Position numbers and translations under genes: made by a program. From a virus, in the UHGV virus genome UHGV-0054069: a DNA stretch of 64,000 bases. One strand, given 5' to 3'. Numbering within the stretch: position 1 is the stretch's first letter; every line of letters starts with the position of its first letter. The notes beneath the pieces are model-generated. The model did no database searches, was not told the origin of the DNA, and worked only from the letters and a program-made list of their open reading frames with translations. Shown here one piece after another: positions 38,766 through 63,313 of the stretch.

Positions 38766-39806
38766 ATGAATCAATATACACTTACAAAGCTCCCAGAAAG
38801 CGTTACACACGTCTTTATTGACGCAGACAGCATTGCTTACAAGGGTGCTTGTGTAGTTGAAAAAGCAAAGTACAAGTATGTGAATAGACTTACCGCTGAA
38901 GAGTCTGATGACTTTGATAGTGCTAAGTTAGCTTCACAATGGTTAGCTGACCAGAGAGTTCTTACAGAGGAACTTGGACTTGACTTTGATGAAGATGAAT
39001 GGGAAAGACAGACTTGGAAGGAAGCCAAGAGCGAAAAAGAAGCTATTATGGCGACTCAGCAGGTTCTTCAAGAATGGCTTAAAGTTGTCGGTAAAGAGCG
39101 TCAATGGATGGGTTACCTGACTGAGAAGGGTGTTCACAAACACAAAGACATTAAAGGTCTTGAACATCAATATCAAGGTAACAGGAAAGATGCGGTGACA
39201 CCTACGCACCTAGTTGCTTGTCGTGAGTATCTTCTGTCACGAACTGAGTTTAAGCTTCTCAAAGGTGGCTTTGAAGCTGACTCAATCGTTATTGCAAAAG
39301 CTGAAAAGATGGGTAAAAAAGCTGCTCTTATGAGTATTGATAAAGACCTTCGTCAAGCTGAAGGGACATATTGTATTGATATGACTTATGAGAAAGCACC
39401 ACTTATCTTTATTGCTGATAATAACGTTGGAGAGATTTGGGATTGCCCTATCAAATCCAAACCAAAAGCTAAGAAGACAGTCGGAGTAGGCTTCAAATTC
39501 CTCTGCTATCAAGCTGTAGCAGGTGATAATGCAGATAACTACTTTGGCCTTAAGGGTGCTGGTAAAGTTGCTGTAATGAACGCTCTGGAAGGTAAAACAA
39601 CCTACAGAGAATGTTTAGATGCTGTTTATGAGTTGTATGCAAAGAAAGACTCTTACACCTATGTGTCGTGGGACGGTCAAACAATTACCAGAACACCTTT
39701 AGAGTTAATGCACCAGCACTTCTGGATTGCATACCAAGAGCGAAATCCAAAGGATGATTTCACGTTTGAAAAATATGGATGGGAGCCTACTATGAATGAA
39801 GATTAA
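38766..39806 (+). CDS. 5'-3' exonuclease / flap endonuclease (FEN family)
   Basis: N-terminal acidic cluster FIDADSIAYKG and H3TH-like motif AGDNADNYFGLKGAGKVAV; start at MNQYTL with GGAGGG RBS. Confidence 0.6.
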   Translation: MNQYTLTKLPESVTHVFIDADSIAYKGACVVEKAKYKYVNRLTAEESDDFDSAKLASQWLADQRVLTEELGLDFDEDEWERQTWKEAKSEKEAIMATQQVLQEWLKVVGKERQWMGYLTEKGVHKHKDIKGLEHQYQGNRKDAVTPTHLVACREYLLSRTEFKLLKGGFEADSIVIAKAEKMGKKAALMSIDKDLRQAEGTYCIDMTYEKAPLIFIADNNVGEIWDCPIKSKPKAKKTVGVGFKFLCYQAVAGDNADNYFGLKGAGKVAVMNALEGKTTYRECLDAVYELYAKKDSYTYVSWDGQTITRTPLELMHQHFWIAYQERNPKDDFTFEKYGWEPTMNED

Positions 39807-40296
39807 AGGTTTCGGTAATTGCCCTGTTTATGGTCATTGGGTATCTTTATGCGGGGAAGTTGACCCAGCTAAACTGTTCGGGTTTGTCTACCTAGTCTAT
39901 TGTAAGAAAACTGGACAGTATTACATTGGTAAAAAGCAGTTCAATAGTATCACTAAGAAGAAGGTTGCTGGAAAGACCAGACGTAAGGTTGTCACCAAAG
40001 AGAGTGACTGGATGGTTTACCAGACTTCTTCTGAGTACATTAAGAAAGATATTGAAGCTTTTGGTATGAAAGAGTTTGACTTCTACATTGTGCAAACCTA
40101 TTATACACGAGGTGGGTTAGTCTATGGAGAAGCAAATCTCCAACATAAGTTCGATGTTATGACAAAAAGGATTGACTCGAAACTCAGACTCTTCTACAAT
40201 GCCAATATTGCAGCTATCAAGTTCCTTACAAAAGAAACTTATGAAGAAGCTGAGAAACGTATTAACAAAATCATGAAACTTAATGAGAGAGAATAA
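39796..40296 (+). CDS. GIY-YIG nuclease family protein (homing endonuclease-like)
   Basis: VYLVY ... YYIGKK motif pair with correct spacing; overlaps exonuclease stop. Confidence 0.5.
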   Translation: MKIKGFGNCPVYGHWVSLCGEVDPAKLFGFVYLVYCKKTGQYYIGKKQFNSITKKKVAGKTRRKVVTKESDWMVYQTSSEYIKKDIEAFGMKEFDFYIVQTYYTRGGLVYGEANLQHKFDVMTKRIDSKLRLFYNANIAAIKFLTKETYEEAEKRINKIMKLNERE

Positions 40297-51091: not shown

Positions 51092-51362
51092 AGAACAATG
51101 GGAAATCAAAGAACTTATTAGTGAAGGTGGTAACGGTTGTGAAATGTACATGATACGTGGTCACGTTCCAGATGCCCTTGCACTTGAGATGGTAGACCAT
51201 CAATCTAATGGCTACTACAAAGAGTTTGGAGAGCCAAACATTGAACGCACTTGGACAAAACCAGTTCCAGACGGTACAGGTAACTGTTTAGTGATTTATC
51301 ATACTGTAGACCCAAAGAAATGCAAAACAGCTATGGCTGTAACCTTCGTAACTTTTGATTGA
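51069..51362 (+). CDS. hypothetical protein
   Basis: 97 aa ORF; alternative start at 51084. Confidence 0.4.
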   Translation: MRRLIMAREQWEIKELISEGGNGCEMYMIRGHVPDALALEMVDHQSNGYYKEFGEPNIERTWTKPVPDGTGNCLVIYHTVDPKKCKTAMAVTFVTFD

Positions 51363-51372
51363 GAGAAATATT

Positions 51373-52254
51373 ATGAAAACTATTATTAGTGTACTATTAC
51401 ACTCACGTAAAAAAGGTGCTCACCAAGAAGAGTTCAACATTATCCAGTTTCCGTCTGGAGAAATTGGTGGTAACTTCTCAGAAGACCTAGTAGCCTATGC
51501 TGAACAGAATGCTTCCCAGATTGAGAATGTAATCCTCACTGTACAGGGTTACGACAAAGATACTCTGTTTGCTTTAGCTCTGGCGAAAGAAGCTATTGAC
51601 AAACTAATTCCTCAGAAATCAACTATGAAGACTGCTGTATTTGGCTTCTTACCAAATGCTCGTTATGACCGTCACATGTTTAAAGGTGATGCAGCAGCAT
51701 TGAAAGTCTTTGCAAATCTGGTAAATGCTATGGAGTTTGATGCAGTATGTGCTTTAGATACCCACAGCAACGTAGCAGAGAACTTGTTTAAGTGCTTCCA
51801 TAACCTGCCTCAGAAAGAAGCAGCAGTACACTTTGCAAGTGACCCACGTATTGATTTCTTAGTGGCTCCAGATGCAGGTGCAGCCAAGAAGACTGAAGAG
51901 GCTGCTAAAGAGGTTGATAAGCCATATATCACAATGGCTAAGATTCGTAATCTGAAAACTGGTGAAATCACTGGTATGCGAATCCTTGATGATGTAGACT
52001 TAACTGGTAAAGCTGTCATGATTCTCGATGATATCTGTGATGGTGGTCGTACCTTTGTAGAAGCTGCAAAACATCTTCGTGAAGCTGGTGCAAGCCGTGT
52101 AGAACTTTATGTAACTCATGGGATTTTCTCAAAAGGTGTTGAAAATCTTCTTGACAATGGCATTGACCATATCTACACTACAAACTCGCTAGGGGATGCT
52201 GAAGACCGTGGTCTGAATCAGTTCTCACAAGTAACTGTAGCAAACATTGAGTAA
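51373..52254 (+). CDS. prs: ribose-phosphate pyrophosphokinase (PRPP synthetase)
   Basis: PRPP-binding PRTase motif ILDDICDGGRT; about 294 aa; start at MKTIIS. Confidence 0.7.
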   Translation: MKTIISVLLHSRKKGAHQEEFNIIQFPSGEIGGNFSEDLVAYAEQNASQIENVILTVQGYDKDTLFALALAKEAIDKLIPQKSTMKTAVFGFLPNARYDRHMFKGDAAALKVFANLVNAMEFDAVCALDTHSNVAENLFKCFHNLPQKEAAVHFASDPRIDFLVAPDAGAAKKTEEAAKEVDKPYITMAKIRNLKTGEITGMRILDDVDLTGKAVMILDDICDGGRTFVEAAKHLREAGASRVELYVTHGIFSKGVENLLDNGIDHIYTTNSLGDAEDRGLNQFSQVTVANIE

Positions 52255-52302
52255 TAAACTTTGAAGGGGCTGAAAAGCCCCACTATTGAGAGAGATAAAA
52301 TT

Positions 52303-54129
52303 ATGTCTAAATCAGTTTATGCAGTACCAGCAGGTCTTAATGCGGATGCTTACAAAGCTGGCCATATCTACCAGTACCCAAGTGCTACACAGTATCTGAT
52401 GCTAAATCTTACACCTCGTGGTGATAAGTGGTTTAACACTCCACTTGATATTGACGGTGTAGTTGCTTTTGGTATTCAACGTTTCGTTAAAGATTACTTA
52501 GTAGACCACTGGAATGCTACCTTCTTTGAACGAGATAAGAAAGAAGTTGTTGACGAAATCTTAGAAATCATGAACGGTGTTCTCGGTGCAGATGCGATTG
52601 GTCGTGAGCATTGGGAAGAACTTCACGATTTAGGCTATCTGCCAGTCGAAGTCTACTCTGTAGAAGAGGGTACAGTGGTTCCAATGCGTGTTCCAATGAT
52701 TATCTTCAAGAATACTGTAGAGGGCTTCCATTGGGTAGCTGGATATCTGGAAGATGCTTTCTCTGCTGAAATTTGGAAAGCTTCTACGATTGCCACTATT
52801 GCATTACACTACAAACGTATCTGTAAGCAATGGGCTGATGTAACCTGTGATAATGACTTCCATTTACCTTGGCAGTGTCATGATTTTGCAATGCGTGGTA
52901 TGTCAGGCTTTACAGATGATGCTTTTAACGCTGTAGGTCACCTGACAAGCTTTAAAGGTACTGACAGCTTCCCTGCTGTCTACACTGCTAAACGTGCTTA
53001 TGGTCAGTTTATGGAAGTAAGTGATATCGGCAACTCTGTACCAGCTACTGAACACTCTGTGATGTGCGCAAACATTTCATGGAATATGAAAGACTTGTCA
53101 GAGGAAGATATTCATTCACAGTACATCATGCAGTCTGATAGCTTGCTGGATGCAAAACGTTGGCGTGGTGAGGTTAAAACCTTTGAGCATTTACTGGTAG
53201 ACGTATATCCAACTGGTATTGCAAGTGTTGTTTCAGATACTTACAACTTCTGGCGTACTATTACAGAGATTCTCCCAGAACTCCGTGAAGTTATCCTGAA
53301 GCGTGAAGGTAAACTGGTAATACGTCCAGACTCTGGAGACCCCATTCACATTGTTGCTGGTTATCGTGCTGTTGAGTGGGAAAATGCCAAGAGTATGTTC
53401 TACAAACATATGAAAGAAATTGCACCGAACAATGATAAACTCCTGAATCTTATTCAGTATTGTGAGTTGCAGGATATGGGTTATGGGTTTGCTGCATGGC
53501 TTATCTCTGAAGGTTATGAGTTAGTTGTTGATAAAGAAGATTTTGAAACTGCTGAAACAGTTAACTTGAAAGATTTTAATAAGACCGGAAATATTGTTGT
53601 TAAGCGTATGCTGACAGCAGAGATTGATGGGGCTATCCCAACTCTCTACAACATCTTTGGTGGTCGTGTGAACAGTAAAGGTTACAAAGTACTGGATGAG
53701 CACATCGGTTTAATCTATGGTGATTCTATCACCCTTGAGCGAGCTAATGAGATTCTTGGTCGTCTTGCTGACAAAGGTTTTGCAAGCTCTAACGTGGTCT
53801 TTGGTGTTGGCTCATACACTTACCAGTACCTGACTCGTGATACCTTTGCATTTGCTGTCAAGGCTACTCTTGCTCAGATGGACGGTGAAGAAATCATGCT
53901 GGCAAAAGACCCTAAAACTGACAGTGGTCTTAAGAAGTCTGCTTTTGGTGGTGTAGTTCCTATGTGTGACGGTGATAAACTGGAAGCTGTAGACGGCTTT
54001 GGCTTTGCAGAGTTTGAAGGTGTACTGGATAATCCAGAATGTGCTTTGAAGTTGGTGTTTAGCAACTCTCAACCATATGGTTATGTAAACCTTTGTGATG
54101 TTCGAAATAACATTGACAAACAACTCTAA
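52303..54129 (+). CDS. nadV: nicotinamide phosphoribosyltransferase (NadV/NAMPT-like)
   Basis: NAMPT-type motifs IRPDSGDP and LIYGDSI; start at MSKSVYA (track start 52261 is TTG inside a hairpin). Confidence 0.8.
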   Translation: MSKSVYAVPAGLNADAYKAGHIYQYPSATQYLMLNLTPRGDKWFNTPLDIDGVVAFGIQRFVKDYLVDHWNATFFERDKKEVVDEILEIMNGVLGADAIGREHWEELHDLGYLPVEVYSVEEGTVVPMRVPMIIFKNTVEGFHWVAGYLEDAFSAEIWKASTIATIALHYKRICKQWADVTCDNDFHLPWQCHDFAMRGMSGFTDDAFNAVGHLTSFKGTDSFPAVYTAKRAYGQFMEVSDIGNSVPATEHSVMCANISWNMKDLSEEDIHSQYIMQSDSLLDAKRWRGEVKTFEHLLVDVYPTGIASVVSDTYNFWRTITEILPELREVILKREGKLVIRPDSGDPIHIVAGYRAVEWENAKSMFYKHMKEIAPNNDKLLNLIQYCELQDMGYGFAAWLISEGYELVVDKEDFETAETVNLKDFNKTGNIVVKRMLTAEIDGAIPTLYNIFGGRVNSKGYKVLDEHIGLIYGDSITLERANEILGRLADKGFASSNVVFGVGSYTYQYLTRDTFAFAVKATLAQMDGEEIMLAKDPKTDSGLKKSAFGGVVPMCDGDKLEAVDGFGFAEFEGVLDNPECALKLVFSNSQPYGYVNLCDVRNNIDKQL

Positions 54130-60932: not shown

Positions 60933-61099
60933 TTGTGGACAAACAGAAGCTTCTTAACTTGATTGAAGAGTATGGTGATACCCGTTTTAATATTGGTATT
61001 GCACAGGTTAAAGATTCAATTGAAAACTCTACCTTATGGGAAGAAGCTTCAGAAGCAATCTTACAACAAATTAAAGAGGTAATCTCTAATGGAACTTAA
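60929..61099 (+). CDS. small hypothetical protein (56 aa)
   Basis: ATGA overlap with upstream stop, fills gap between ORFs; below track size cutoff. Confidence 0.3.
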   Translation: MIVDKQKLLNLIEEYGDTRFNIGIAQVKDSIENSTLWEEASEAILQQIKEVISNGT

Positions 61100-61415
61100 T
61101 GGTAAAACCATTGTAGCCGTATTCTCAGATAATGAGAAAGATATTGGTGTAGCCCAAGTGACATATGGCAATGGTGAGTTTCTATATGGTGTAATCGCCA
61201 TGATTGGTACAAGAGGTGATACCCCAACATTCCAAGATTGTGTACATAAGCTTGAAGAGTCTGTTAGAAATCATTGGTGTCTCGTTTGGATGAACGATAA
61301 TGATATCAAAGAGCGTTACGCTAAAATTGGTATTGACATTGTTGGAATTGAACATGTAGACTTGTATCAACTAACTGAAAAGGTGATGTATGAAAGTTCT
61401 AATCGTCAGAAATAA
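61089..61415 (+). CDS. hypothetical protein
   Basis: 108 aa ORF. Confidence 0.4.
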   Translation: MELNGKTIVAVFSDNEKDIGVAQVTYGNGEFLYGVIAMIGTRGDTPTFQDCVHKLEESVRNHWCLVWMNDNDIKERYAKIGIDIVGIEHVDLYQLTEKVMYESSNRQK

Positions 61416-61611
61416 AAAGACACGACAAATTATAGCATCTGGTATCTATGTAGGGAGAAGTGAAGTAATCCCGTTTACAGAGGTTTTCTCACATAAAGAA
61501 ACCTTCAAATATTATTTGGATGAATGCTTCTTACGTTCAAACGTTGAAAGTTTTAAACGGACTTTCACCAGTAATCGTACAGTCACTCAAGAGGTAATCT
61601 TAAATGGCTGA
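61390..61611 (+). CDS. hypothetical protein
   Basis: 73 aa ORF. Confidence 0.4.
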   Translation: MKVLIVRNKKTRQIIASGIYVGRSEVIPFTEVFSHKETFKYYLDECFLRSNVESFKRTFTSNRTVTQEVILNG

Positions 61612-61804
61612 TTTCTGCAAGAGTTGTTCTATTGAAATGTTTGGACGTGATACAGGAGACTTGAAAGGTCTTATCACTGAAGATGATTTCAAAGCTGGTT
61701 ATGCTATGCCAACACTCTGTGAAGGTTGTGGTGGAATCTGGGTAGACCATGAAGGGCAACGTGTAAAACCTTCTGAAGATAAAGAATCATGGGAGAAATG
61801 GTAA
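61604..61804 (+). CDS. zinc-ribbon protein
   Basis: CKSC ... CEGCGG Cys4 arrangement; 66 aa; stop abuts macrodomain gene start. Confidence 0.45.
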   Translation: MADFCKSCSIEMFGRDTGDLKGLITEDDFKAGYAMPTLCEGCGGIWVDHEGQRVKPSEDKESWEKW

Positions 61805-61805
61805 C

Positions 61806-62600
61806 ATGGGCATTGTAAAAATCATTAAAGGTGATATCTTTGAAGCCTTTGATAACCAGAAGTTTGATATCATTGGTCACGGATGCAACTGCATGAACTT
61901 GATGGGTGCAGGGATTGCAGCGACGATTGCAAAACGTTATCCAAAAGCTTATGAGACTGACGCTGAAGTTTATGAGACAGTTGGTGGTGAGAACCATAAA
62001 CCTGTACATCTTATGCTTGGCAATATCTCTGTAGCACGTTTCAAGCAGGGTCGAATTGCTAACCTATACACTCAGGTTATCACTGGTAAAGATGCACGTT
62101 ACAATGCCTTAGAAGCAGCTTTGCAGCGTCTTAATAACTACTGCAAAGTAAACCAGCTTAAGAAGGTTGGTCTTCCAATGATTTGTGCAGGGATTGGTGG
62201 TTTGGATATCTTTGCAGTTACTTCAATCATTAACCAGACAATGAAAGATGTAGACGTTTACCTTTATGTCTATGAAGAAACAATGCACAGACGACTAACC
62301 AATAACATAGTTGGTTGGAACAACTACAGTGAACCTCAACACTTTGATGGTGTCGCAGTTGTGAAGGATAATCAAGTTACACTACGGGTAAAACGGAAGG
62401 GTAAGGTGCATAAAAGTAACCCTCCGGTTGAGAAGTACTCTCTGAGTAACGCTCAAGTTACCCACCCGTTACACGACCACTGCTTGAGAGCAGTAACATT
62501 TGGGGACAATGCAAGTGTTTACCTTCTTGCACAAGACCATGAAGAAGCTGATAAGATTATCTCTGATAAACGTTTTAGCTTTGTTGAAGCACGTAACTAA
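61806..62600 (+). CDS. macrodomain protein (TARG1/DarG-like ADP-ribose hydrolase fold) with unknown C-terminal domain
   Basis: KGDIF, HGCNCMNLMGAGIA, catalytic-position Lys (RFKQG) and Asp in PMICAGIGGLD align with the TARG1 macrodomain pattern; 264 aa. Confidence 0.7.
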   Translation: MGIVKIIKGDIFEAFDNQKFDIIGHGCNCMNLMGAGIAATIAKRYPKAYETDAEVYETVGGENHKPVHLMLGNISVARFKQGRIANLYTQVITGKDARYNALEAALQRLNNYCKVNQLKKVGLPMICAGIGGLDIFAVTSIINQTMKDVDVYLYVYEETMHRRLTNNIVGWNNYSEPQHFDGVAVVKDNQVTLRVKRKGKVHKSNPPVEKYSLSNAQVTHPLHDHCLRAVTFGDNASVYLLAQDHEEADKIISDKRFSFVEARN

Positions 62601-62666
62601 GTAACTTTGTAAAGTATTCACAATAGAGTAAGCCTTTCTTGTTCTTGCAAACACAAGGTAAGGAGG

Positions 62667-62854
62667 GCTTTTTCATTTCAAAATCGTGCAGATAAAGGTC
62701 TATAAAGAAATCTGTAGAGTGAAATCAAAGTCAACTCCAAAGGGAAAATTCATTTTCAATTTGTGCAGGTGAACTCCAAAGAGCTTTTTCATTTCAAAAT
62801 TGTGCAGAGAAAAATCAGGTCGGGCAAGAAAATTCATTTTCAATTTGTGCAGGT
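62667..62854. repeat. array of four direct repeats of two alternating types in noncoding DNA
   Basis: Type A 26-mers at 62667-62692 and 62783-62808 (1 mismatch); type B identical 27-mers at 62744-62770 and 62828-62854; AACTCCAAAG at 62733 and 62772. Confidence 0.7.
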
Positions 62855-62870
62855 AGCCAGATATAGCCAG

Positions 62871-62906
62871 CCATCCCCACCACCCCCTCTTACTCCCCTT
62901 CCTCCC
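62871..62906 (+). repeat. G-free polypyrimidine (C-rich) tract
   Basis: 36 nt with no G on + strand, about two-thirds C, in an AT-rich genome. Confidence 0.6.
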
Positions 62907-63027
62907 AAAAGTCAAGAGAAAAATTTGTAGCGGATTAAAAAATAATTCTTGACTAGTTTTCTGTTTAGTGCTATGTGTACGCGCCCGTTTCATTCACAAC
63001 ATGCCAAAAATATTTTTAAAAATTTGC

Positions 63028-63056
63028 TTGACTCTAAAAAACCAGTCTTATAGTAT
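63028..63056 (+). promoter_or_regulatory. sigma70-type promoter
   Basis: TTGACT-N17-TAGTAT upstream of small-ORF cassette. Confidence 0.4.
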
Positions 63057-63080
63057 TTGCATCAACGGGAAGCAATCCCA

Positions 63081-63101
63081 ACAATCCTAAACTGGAGATT
63101 C
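63081..63101 (+). repeat. repeated 21-bp translation-initiation leader (second copy 63552-63572)
   Basis: ACAATCCTAAACTGGAGATTC identical at both sites, each just upstream of an ATG (63107, 63577). Confidence 0.6.
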
Positions 63102-63106
63102 AAAAA

Positions 63107-63313
63107 ATGTTATATCAACGGGAATTAATGATTGTCGATAATAACAAAACTAAAAAACGTCGCTTCTTTATGTTAATCTGTGACGTGTGGCAAAGAATAT
63201 CTGAAAAGGATTATGACAAGTATGTTGATACATCAATCAGGTCGGATTGTTATTTGACAAATCACACAAGACAGTTTACAAGACATACAGCAGTTTACTA
63301 CTATGACGTTTAA
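63107..63313 (+). CDS. hypothetical protein
   Basis: 68 aa ORF downstream of repeated leader. Confidence 0.4.
   Translation: MLYQRELMIVDNNKTKKRRFFMLICDVWQRISEKDYDKYVDTSIRSDCYLTNHTRQFTRHTAVYYYDV

What the first reader, a model, noticed from the sequence alone, without database searches (positions are those of the whole stretch)
61604..62600. Zn-ribbon + TARG1/DarG-type macrodomain pair: candidate enzymatic eraser of ADP-ribosylation
The 264-aa product of 61806-62600 carries an N-terminal macrodomain whose motifs (KGDIF; HGCNCMNLMGAGIA; Lys in RFKQG; Asp in PMICAGIGGLD) match the TARG1/DarG-like clade, including the Lys/Asp positions used for catalysis in that clade. It has an extra ~110-aa C-terminal domain of unknown function and is translationally coupled to a small Cys4 zinc-ribbon protein. 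In a virulent phage this is most simply an anti-defense enzyme that removes ADP-ribose from DNA or protein (for example against DarT-type or other ADP-ribosyltransferase immunity). No such two-gene module is described to my knowledge, but I cannot search.
Basis: partly seen in the sequence, partly recalled or inferred. Interest (0 to 1): 0.75.

Follow-up and report, generated by a model that had tools for sequence, protein, structure and literature searches.

The report
Phage macrodomain, T4 AdfM-like, extra domain

Summary
Both ORFs exist as described. The window comes from a FelixO1-like myovirus (Mooglevirus). Residues 1-155 of the 264-aa protein form a genuine macrodomain: Pfam scores above threshold, the AF2 model has pLDDT 91, and the nearest solved folds are TARG1, DarG and Poa1p.

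It is a clear homolog of T4 Tk.4/AdfM (34% identity; hhalign 99.9%). A 2025 preprint showed genetically that T4 needs AdfM to resist DarTG2. The anti-DarT idea is therefore supported, but it is not new.

- TARG1 K84 and the DarG catalytic Lys align to an invariant Gln90 (140 of 140 family members).
- TARG1 D125 aligns to Gly131.
- K80 is not conserved.
- The Gln matches SCO6735, a characterised Gln-type thymidine-ADP-ribose DNA hydrolase.

The Zn-ribbon gene is not a dedicated partner. It also occurs in T5-like, rV5-like, Pseudomonas and Stenotrophomonas phages with no adjacent macrodomain gene, and the macrodomain family occurs widely without it.

Residues 156-264 form an orphan, fast-evolving, mostly-β domain found only in FelixO1-like phages, with no fold or sequence match. 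This phage clade also carries Cys127 in place of an otherwise invariant phosphate-loop glycine.

Verdict: a new variant of a known kind, of modest interest.

The parts
61806..62600 (+). 264-aa two-domain macrodomain protein (ortholog of Moogle gp116 'phosphatase, contains Macro domain'; PHROG 335)
   Evidence: ORF. PHROG 335 E=5e-96 over the full length. Moogle annotation. AF2 model has pLDDT 91.2 and pTM 0.88.
61806..62270 (+). Macrodomain (aa 1-155), TARG1/DarG/ALC1-like class, Tk.4/AdfM-like family, Gln-type
   Evidence: Pfam Macro 30.5 bits. PDB profile hits: TARG1 5e-16, Poa1p 1.5e-14, DarG 1e-12, SCO6735 8e-12. Foldseek TM 0.83-0.87. T4 Tk.4 34% identity, E=1e-19. PADLOC and NCBIfam DarG models about 50 bits, macro part only.
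62073..62075 (+). Codon CAG = Gln90, at the position of the catalytic Lys of TARG1 (K84), DarG and PhiKZ AdfM; equivalent to Gln85 of SCO6735
   Evidence: Alignments. Gln in 140 of 140 family members versus Lys in all four reference enzymes. Direct alignment of family member P0020 to 5e3b. SCO6735 Q85A is inactive (PMC9411070).
61887..61889 (+). Codon AAC = Asn28 of the HGCNC motif, equivalent to PhiKZ AdfM N23 and the DarG Asn
   Evidence: Asn in 139 of 140 family members, and Asn in both DarGs and PhiKZ AdfM. The N23A mutation reduces PhiKZ AdfM activity (PMC13309987).
62184..62186 (+). Codon TGT = Cys127, replacing a Gly that is invariant in 140 of 140 relatives and in TARG1, both DarGs and PhiKZ AdfM (P-x-I-G-x-G phosphate loop)
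   Evidence: The same TGT codon is in phages ESh21 and ESh22; Moogle has GGT.
62271..62597 (+). Orphan C-terminal domain (aa 156-264): helix, about six beta-strands, then a helix; restricted to FelixO1-like phages
61604..61804 (+). 66-aa acidic Cys4 (CxxC...CxxC) zinc-ribbon-like protein (PHROG 2210); an independent, widely distributed small phage gene
   Evidence: Found in 836 phage records. Cys residues conserved. T5.062 is 66% identical. pI 4.5.
61791..61795 (+). GGGAG Shine-Dalgarno for the macro gene, inside the 3' end of the Zn-ribbon ORF, 10 nt before the ATG at 61806
   Evidence: Read directly from the sequence.
62626..62684 (+). Terminator-like hairpin with a U-rich tail immediately after the macro gene, ending the transcription unit
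   Evidence: RNA fold gives -20.7 kcal/mol, z = -3.2, with 0 of 200 shuffles folding as well.

Best explanation
The 264-aa protein is the FelixO1-group version of the widespread phage Tk.4/AdfM macrodomain family.

What the N-terminal domain does: it binds ADP-ribose. Most likely it hydrolyses ADP-ribose attached to thymidine in single-stranded phage DNA by DarT2-type toxins, and so reverses the DarTG2 replication block.

How it does it: it uses the Gln-type chemistry described for SCO6735, not the Lys chemistry of TARG1 and DarG. In that mechanism the Gln positions the distal ribose and an activated water attacks. Direct binding and inhibition of DarT, as shown for SCO6735, may add to the effect.

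Expression: it is the last gene of a tightly packed operon that lies in the rIIA/rIIB region of the genome and ends at a hairpin terminator.

C-terminal domain: the ~109-aa domain is lineage-specific and fast-evolving, and the model predicts it packs rigidly on the macrodomain. I infer it is an accessory specificity or partner-binding domain; its function is unknown.

Zn-ribbon gene: the upstream gene is a separate, broadly distributed small phage gene and not a functional partner.

Shown here: the fold, the homology, the residue equivalences, the distribution and the architecture. Inferred: the substrate, the in vivo role and the C-domain function.
For: - Macro fold and class.
- Homology to T4 Tk.4: 34% identity and E=1e-19; hhalign probability 99.9%, E=6e-36.
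- T4 tk.4 was the single significant hit of a transposon screen on DarTG2 hosts, and a clean knockout sensitised T4 (bioRxiv 10.1101/2025.11.20.689424).
- The only PADLOC match and the only significant NCBIfam match are DarG models (E about 1e-13).
- ADP-ribose-binding motifs are conserved: G9-D10, G34-x-G36, P124..G129, N28.
- Gln90 is invariant and equivalent to SCO6735 Gln85.
- SCO6735 cleaves thymidine-linked ADP-ribose on DNA, protects against DarT, and Q85A is inactive (PMC9411070).
- Thymidine-ADP-ribose hydrolysis is a property of this macrodomain class (PMC12879935).
- PhiKZ AdfM removes DarT2 marks in vitro (PMC13309987).
Against: - No experiment exists on any FelixO1-like ortholog.
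- T4 AdfM's biochemistry is itself inferred; the preprint gives genetics only.
- The protein scores about 50 bits against a 250-bit DarG equivalog cut-off and lacks the DarG Lys and the DarG C-terminal domain.
- This clade has Cys at the otherwise invariant Gly127 of the phosphate loop, which could weaken binding or catalysis.
- CDD-derived annotations in GenBank place it in the 'Poa1p-like' group, whose founding member acts on a small molecule.
- Iyer et al. 2022 argue that phage macrodomains mainly target soluble ADP-ribose derivatives (PMC9503650).
Confidence: 0.6

Rival explanations
1. The protein processes small molecules. It hydrolyses soluble ADP-ribose derivatives such as ADP-ribose-1''-phosphate (as Poa1p does), O-acetyl-ADP-ribose, or ADP-ribose-derived immune signals or toxins. 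It would not act on DNA adducts.
For: Poa1p is a top sequence hit (E=7e-5 with the single sequence, 1.5e-14 with the profile) and shares the H-x-C-N-C motif. GenBank annotations read 'phosphatase', 'O-acetyl-ADP-ribose deacetylase' and 'Poa1p_like family'. Iyer et al. predict that phage macrodomains mainly target low-molecular-weight ADP-ribose derivatives (PMC9503650). The phage also encodes NAD+ salvage enzymes, NAMPT and PRPP synthetase.
Against: The closest tested relative, T4 Tk.4, has a DarTG2-specific phenotype. The Poa1p residues studied by mutation, S30 and F152, align to Leu32 and Gly131. The Gln-type relative SCO6735 acts on DNA thymidine adducts. No KptA/Tpt1 or 2H gene is annotated in the parts of the Moogle genome read.
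Confidence: 0.18
2. The protein erases ADP-ribose from proteins or RNA. It would counter other ADP-ribosyltransferase toxins, for example mRNA-modifying CmdT-type or protein-modifying ARTs.
For: TARG1 and SCO6735 also act on protein substrates, and TARG1 acts on RNA phosphate ends (PMC11833690). CmdTAC shows that RNA ADP-ribosylation is an anti-phage mechanism.
Against: There is no direct evidence. T4 encodes Tk.4 yet is strongly restricted by CmdTAC. SCO6735 was reported inactive on 2'-OH RNA ADP-ribosylation.
Confidence: 0.1
3. The Zn-ribbon protein and the macrodomain protein form an obligate, translationally coupled two-component anti-defence module.
For: The genes are separated by 1 nt, and the macro gene's Shine-Dalgarno lies inside the Zn-ribbon ORF. 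The adjacency is kept in Moogle and in a lineage where the macro protein is only 42% identical (L008).
Against: The Zn-ribbon gene is found in 836 phage records. In T5-like, rV5-like, Pseudomonas and Stenotrophomonas phages no macrodomain gene lies next to it. T5 has the Zn-ribbon gene yet is DarTG2-sensitive. Two-domain macro genes in the P0010 lineage and T4 tk.4 have no Zn-ribbon gene next to them. The two genes evolve at very different rates, 92% versus 42% identity in L008. The whole operon is equally tightly packed.
Confidence: 0.07
4. In this particular clade (the window phage, ESh21 and ESh22), the G127C change in the phosphate-binding loop has weakened or abolished catalysis. The protein would then act mainly as an ADP-ribose or DarT binder, or be decaying.
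For: Gly127 is invariant in 140 of 140 relatives and in TARG1, both DarGs and PhiKZ AdfM. Cys is present in three independent records. SCO6735, DarG and TARG1 catalytic mutants still inhibit DarT by binding.
Against: The ORF is intact, and every other conserved residue is retained. The effect of Gly to Cys at this position is untested.
Confidence: 0.15

Closest known systems
T4 Tk.4 / AdfM (anti-DarT factor Macrodomain; bioRxiv 10.1101/2025.11.20.689424)
   Same: Same macrodomain family: 34% identity over 160 aa, with shared IKGD, HGCNC, MGxGxA, NLYTQ and P-x-IGAGIG motifs, including Gln at the Lys position. Both are orphan phage genes with no linked toxin.
   Different: T4 Tk.4 is a standalone 155-aa domain. 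The window protein adds a ~109-aa orphan C-terminal domain and has Cys127 instead of Gly. The genomic neighbourhood also differs: vs and tk.3 in T4, versus the Zn-ribbon gene and a terminator here. It has not been tested experimentally.
Streptomyces coelicolor SCO6735 (PDB 5e3b), a Gln-type ALC1/TARG1-class hydrolase
   Same: Gln sits at the position of TARG1 K84 and DarG K80, and the H-x-C-N motif and the P-x-IG-x-G loop are shared. SCO6735 cleaves thymidine-linked ADP-ribose on DNA and protects against DarT (PMC9411070).
   Different: It is a bacterial, DNA-damage-induced, single-domain protein with a longer basic mobile loop. Sequence similarity is only remote (profile E=8e-12).
DarG antitoxin of DarTG2 (T. 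aquaticus and M. tuberculosis; PDB 5m31, 5m3i) and PhiKZ AdfM (gp104)
   Same: Same fold (TM 0.83). The conserved Asn (N28 here, N23 in PhiKZ) and the GGLD loop are shared. The PADLOC and NCBIfam DarG models are the best family hits.
   Different: DarG and PhiKZ AdfM have the catalytic Lys (FPTK); this family has Gln. The window protein scores 50 bits against the 250-bit DarG equivalog cut-off, while PhiKZ AdfM scores 133 bits on the PADLOC model. The DarG C-terminal DarT-binding domain is absent, since profile positions 154-338 are unmatched. There is no linked darT.
Human TARG1/OARD1 (PDB 4j5r)
   Same: It is the best PDB match by sequence profile (E=5e-16) and by structure (TM 0.86). The adenine-binding Asp and the GxG loop are conserved.
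   Different: The catalytic dyad K84/D125 is replaced by Gln90 and Gly131.
Yeast Poa1p (PDB 6lfq), ADP-ribose-1''-phosphate phosphatase
   Same: The H-x-C-N-C-x-x-x-x-G-x-G-I-A motif is shared, with His25 equivalent to H23. Database annotations read 'Poa1p-like' or 'phosphatase'.
   Different: Poa1p S30 and F152 align to Leu32 and Gly131. Poa1p has a long insertion. Its substrate is a small molecule.

Membership tests
Macro domain superfamily (Pfam PF01661) | Profile score above the curated gathering threshold | tested here: met
   30.5 bits against a threshold of 22, aa 25-141.
Macro domain superfamily (Pfam PF01661) | Macrodomain fold | tested here: met
   AF2 pLDDT 91.2. Foldseek: TARG1 TM 0.86-0.87, DarG 0.83, Poa1p 0.78; 239 PDB hits with E at or below 1e-3.
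Macro domain superfamily (Pfam PF01661) | ADP-ribose-binding loops: GxG diphosphate loop, second P-x-x-G-x-G loop, N-terminal adenine-binding Asp | tested here: inconclusive
   G34-A-G36, P124..G129 and D10 (aligned to TARG1 D20) are present. However, Gly127 of loop 2, invariant elsewhere, is Cys in this phage.
TARG1/OARD1-type hydrolase | Catalytic Lys84/Asp125 dyad | tested here: not met
   K84 aligns to Gln90 and D125 aligns to Gly131, in HMMER and MAFFT alignments.
DarG antitoxin (NCBIfam NF048014 equivalog; PADLOC PDLC02990) | Score at or above the curated equivalog cut-off | tested here: not met
   50.4 bits against a 250-bit cut-off. PADLOC 49.6 bits, compared with 132.9 for PhiKZ AdfM.
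DarG antitoxin (NCBIfam NF048014 equivalog; PADLOC PDLC02990) | Catalytic Lys (K80, in the FPTK motif) | tested here: not met
   Gln90 occupies that column; Gln in 140 of 140 family members.
DarG antitoxin (NCBIfam NF048014 equivalog; PADLOC PDLC02990) | C-terminal DarT-binding domain | tested here: not met
DarG antitoxin (NCBIfam NF048014 equivalog; PADLOC PDLC02990) | Genetic linkage to a darT toxin gene | tested here: not met
   The neighbours are the Zn-ribbon ORF (no PADLOC hit) and a terminator. It is an orphan gene in a phage operon.
Tk.4/AdfM-like phage macrodomain family (PHROG 335) | Significant full-domain homology and shared signature motifs (HGCNC, NLYTQ, P-x-IGAGIG) | tested here: met
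   PHROG 335 E=5e-96. T4 Tk.4 E=1e-19. hhalign probability 99.9%. Motif conservation of 90% or more across 140 members.
Tk.4/AdfM-like phage macrodomain family (PHROG 335) | Required for phage growth on DarTG2 hosts | not testable with these tools
   Shown only for T4. HIDEN-SEQ covered T4, Bas37 and Bas54 and included no FelixO1-like phage.
Tk.4/AdfM-like phage macrodomain family (PHROG 335) | Standalone single-domain architecture of about 150-180 aa | tested here: not met
   The protein is 264 aa with an extra domain. 126 of the 140 sampled members are 140-199 aa, and 14 are 240-279 aa.
SCO6735-type (Gln) ALC1-like hydrolases | Gln at the position of TARG1 K84 and DarG K80 | tested here: met
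   Gln90 is invariant. In a direct alignment of a family member to 5e3b, NLYTQ pairs with NMIGQ. Equivalence of Gln85 to K84/K80 is stated in PMC9411070.
SCO6735-type (Gln) ALC1-like hydrolases | Hydrolysis of thymidine-linked ADP-ribose on ssDNA | not testable with these tools
   Requires a biochemical assay.
Poa1p-like ADP-ribose-1''-phosphate phosphatase | Residues probed by the deposited Poa1p mutants (H23, S30, F152) | tested here: inconclusive
   H23 aligns to His25, which is conserved. S30 aligns to Leu32 and F152 aligns to Gly131, which are not conserved (alignments; mutant names).

The most novel reading that the evidence does not exclude
The orphan C-terminal domain could be an independently evolved toxin-binding or target-recognition module. 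FelixO1-like phages would then carry a complete two-part antitoxin mimic, with a hydrolase plus a DarT-neutralising domain, functionally analogous to full-length DarG but built from an unrelated fold. Its rapid divergence (14-94% identity against 45-92% for the macrodomain) and its variable charge would reflect an arms race with diverse DarT toxins.
Probability: 0.12. Interest if true: 0.6.

Novelty: new variant of a known kind. Interest (0 to 1): 0.3.

Why it matters
If confirmed, this would extend macrodomain-based anti-DarTG2 counter-defence from T4-like and jumbo phages to the FelixO1 group, which is widely used for Salmonella and E. coli typing and biocontrol.

It also makes a broader point. 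The abundant Tk.4-like phage family (2,791 of 50,697 phage records) uniformly has Gln instead of the DarG/TARG1 catalytic Lys. That ties these phage enzymes to the SCO6735-type water-mediated mechanism.

The lineage-restricted C-terminal domain and the natural G127C variant give ready-made handles for dissecting specificity.

It does not reveal a new kind of system.

Tried and rejected
- Zn-ribbon and macrodomain as a module: rejected on distribution and context.
- PaMx43 ORF34, a 155-aa gene right after a Zn-ribbon homolog, suspected to be a hidden macrodomain: rejected (hhalign probability 0.5%, no Pfam hit).
- C-terminal domain as a conserved DNA binder (basic) or DNA mimic (acidic): not supported, because its pI ranges from 4.6 to 9.7 among orthologs.
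- P0024, a 2851-aa protein with six matches to the C-domain profile: spurious. It is a concatenated eukaryotic copia-type retrotransposon polyprotein, and weak repeat hits were summed.
- P0022 and P0025 as 'standalone' C-domains: they are truncated gene calls of the same phage gene.
- I first mis-assigned T5.063 as the Zn-ribbon homolog. The alignment showed it is unrelated. T5.062 is the true homolog.
It is K80.
- The hhalign alignment to PhiKZ AdfM was shifted by one residue at the TQ/TK motif. MAFFT with several references resolved this.
- Literature search for DarTG tests on Felixounavirus found nothing relevant.
Full report
**What is there**

The window holds two abutting plus-strand ORFs. 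One runs 61604-61804 (66 aa) and the other 61806-62600 (264 aa). The first ends with TAA at 61802-61804, and the second starts at ATG 61806. A GGGAG Shine-Dalgarno lies at 61791-61795.

The window is from a FelixO1-like myovirus of the subfamily Ounavirinae, genus Mooglevirus. The stretch 61000-63200 is 98-99% identical to Shigella phages ESh21 and ESh22 and 88% identical to Citrobacter phage Moogle.

The ortholog in Moogle is already annotated 'phosphatase; FelixO1-like, contains Macro domain'. Other records call it 'macro domain-containing protein', 'O-acetyl-ADP-ribose deacetylase' or 'Poa1p_like family'.

The two genes are the last in a tightly packed operon whose members all overlap or abut. 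A strong hairpin with a U-rich tail follows at 62626-62684 (-20.7 kcal/mol, z = -3.2).

**The macrodomain is real**

- Pfam Macro scores 30.5 bits against a threshold of 22.
- PHROG 335 matches the full length at E=5e-96.
- An AlphaFold2 model built on 21 homologs has mean pLDDT 91.2 and pTM 0.88.
- Its best PDB matches are TARG1 (TM 0.86-0.87), DarG (0.83) and Poa1p (0.78).
- A sequence profile gives the same ranking: TARG1 5e-16, Poa1p 1.5e-14, DarG 1e-12, SCO6735 8e-12.
- The only PADLOC match and the only significant NCBIfam match are DarG models, at E about 1e-13.

**The catalytic-residue claim is wrong**

HMMER and MAFFT with TARG1, two DarGs and PhiKZ AdfM all align the invariant Thr89-Gln90 of 'NLYTQ' with the 'TK' of TARG1 (K84), DarG and PhiKZ AdfM.

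I aligned 140 family members gathered with the window protein and T4 Tk.4 as queries. That position is Gln in 140 of 140.

TARG1 D125 aligns with Gly131.

This does not imply inactivity. SCO6735 is a characterised member of the same class with Gln85 at exactly this position. Its Q85A mutant is dead, and the enzyme cleaves thymidine-linked ADP-ribose on DNA, protects against DarT and also inhibits DarT by binding (PMC9411070). A direct alignment of a family member with SCO6735 pairs NLYTQ with NMIGQ and shows a shared H-x-C-N motif.

Asn28 is equivalent to N23 of PhiKZ AdfM, whose mutation reduces activity.

**Link to a tested phage protein**

Residues 3-160 are 34% identical to T4 Tk.4 (E=1e-19; hhalign probability 99.9%).

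A 2025 preprint found tk.4 as the single significant hit when a T4 transposon library was grown on a DarTG2 host. A clean knockout sensitised T4, and the authors named the gene adfM.

A chimallivirus macrodomain, also named AdfM, removes DarT2 marks from DNA in vitro and rescues DarT2 toxicity (PMC13309987). That protein is of the Lys-containing DarG type. It is more distant from the window protein (hhalign 96.6%, 21% identity).

So 'phage macrodomain that erases DarT2 ADP-ribosylation' is an established concept. The window protein is a member of the T4-type family.

That family is very common: tblastn with the N-terminal domain finds 2,791 of 50,697 phage records.

No FelixO1-like phage has been tested. 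HIDEN-SEQ covered T4, Bas37 and Bas54, and a literature search for DarTG with Felixounavirus found nothing relevant.

**The Zn-ribbon gene is not a partner**

The 66-aa protein is acidic (pI 4.5). Its CxxC...CxxC cysteines are conserved in homologs down to 38% identity.

It occurs in 836 phage records. Its neighbours in other phage groups are:
- T5-like phages: it sits among tRNA genes (Bas33; T5.062 is 66% identical).
- rV5-like phages: it is the last gene before a tail-fibre gene.
- Pseudomonas phage PaMx43: it lies between an exonuclease-like gene and a 155-aa gene that is not a macrodomain.
- A Stenotrophomonas phage: it lies among small hypothetical genes.

T5 carries it and is nevertheless strongly restricted by DarTG2.

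Conversely, T4 tk.4 has no Zn-ribbon neighbour. A two-domain lineage at 41% identity has a homing endonuclease or another gene upstream instead, and no Zn-ribbon gene in the 1.7-6.2 kb held around the gene.

Where the adjacency is kept at long range (L008), the Zn-ribbon protein is 92% identical while the macro protein is 42% identical. The adjacency is therefore inherited synteny within one phage subfamily.

**The C-terminal domain**

Residues 156-264 are modelled with confidence in the full-length model (block means about 89-95 for most of the domain). Modelled alone, the mean pLDDT is 80. The topology is a helix, about six strands, then a helix.

It has no relatives by any method I could run:
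- no Pfam family;
- no BFVD match other than its own ortholog;
- no relatives among 1.84 billion representative proteins beyond this gene family.

In phage genomes it is restricted to FelixO1-like phages and is always fused to this macrodomain (256 records).

It diverges much faster than the macrodomain, at 14-94% against 45-92% identity, and its net charge is not conserved (pI 4.6-9.7).

Bacterial DarG also has a second, DarT-binding domain (PMC11825919). DarG profiles do not extend into this region.

Its function is unknown. I infer an accessory specificity or partner-binding role.

**A caveat specific to this phage**

Codon 62184-62186 is TGT (Cys127). All 140 relatives and all four reference enzymes have Gly there, in the P-x-I-G-x-G phosphate loop. 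ESh21 and ESh22 share the TGT codon, while Moogle has GGT.

This is a real clade-specific change at a universally conserved position, and it may alter activity.

**Context**

The window also encodes NAMPT (52261-54129) and a PRPP synthetase (51355-52254). This matches the NAD+ salvage genes annotated in Moogle. No ADP-ribosyltransferase is annotated in the portions of Moogle that I read.

**Verdict**

The two-gene module is not supported.

The finding is a new variant of a known kind. The new elements are the orphan C-terminal domain, the family-wide Gln, and the G127C variant. Interest is modest.

Noticed in passing
window 62664-62854: The intergenic region just downstream of the macro gene holds four direct copies of a 27-33-nt element, in two alternating variants (GCTTTTTCATTTCAAAATyGTGCAGA and GAAAATTCATTTTCAATTTGTGCAGGT), spaced 39-77 nt apart. 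They may be repeated promoter or regulator sites.
   Followed up: no
window 62184-62186 (Cys127 of the macro protein): A Gly-to-Cys change sits at a position that is Gly in 140 of 140 family members and in TARG1, both DarGs and PhiKZ AdfM. It is shared with phages ESh21 and ESh22 but not with Moogle.
   Followed up: partly
window 61604-61804; L014:484-681 (T5.062); L003:2501-2698; L004:2501-2701: The 66-aa Cys4 protein is unusually well conserved, at 63-66% identity between FelixO1-like, rV5-like and T5-like phages. It is found in 836 phage records, and in T5-like phages it is embedded in the tRNA gene cluster. Its function is unknown.
   Followed up: partly
window 51355-54129: NAD+ salvage genes are present: a PRPP synthetase-like protein (299 aa) and a nicotinamide phosphoribosyltransferase (622 aa). 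They may be relevant to NAD+-consuming or NAD+-depleting host defences.
   Followed up: partly
window 39796-40296: This 166-aa ORF matches the SegE-type GIY-YIG homing endonuclease family (Pfam E=5.8e-27). Moogle annotates a 166-aa gene in a similar neighbourhood as 'NAD synthetase'. I did not test whether the two are orthologs or whether that annotation is wrong.
   Followed up: no
L005:2694-3023 and L007:286-615: In a distant two-domain lineage (41% identity), an HNH/AP2 homing-endonuclease gene is inserted immediately upstream of the macro gene and overlaps its start. A sibling contig (L006) lacks it.
   Followed up: no
window 62700-62993 (- strand): A 97-aa minus-strand ORF overlaps the repeat region, and Moogle annotates a small minus-strand gene at the equivalent place (gp115). 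Whether it is a real gene or an artefact of the repeats was not examined.
   Followed up: no
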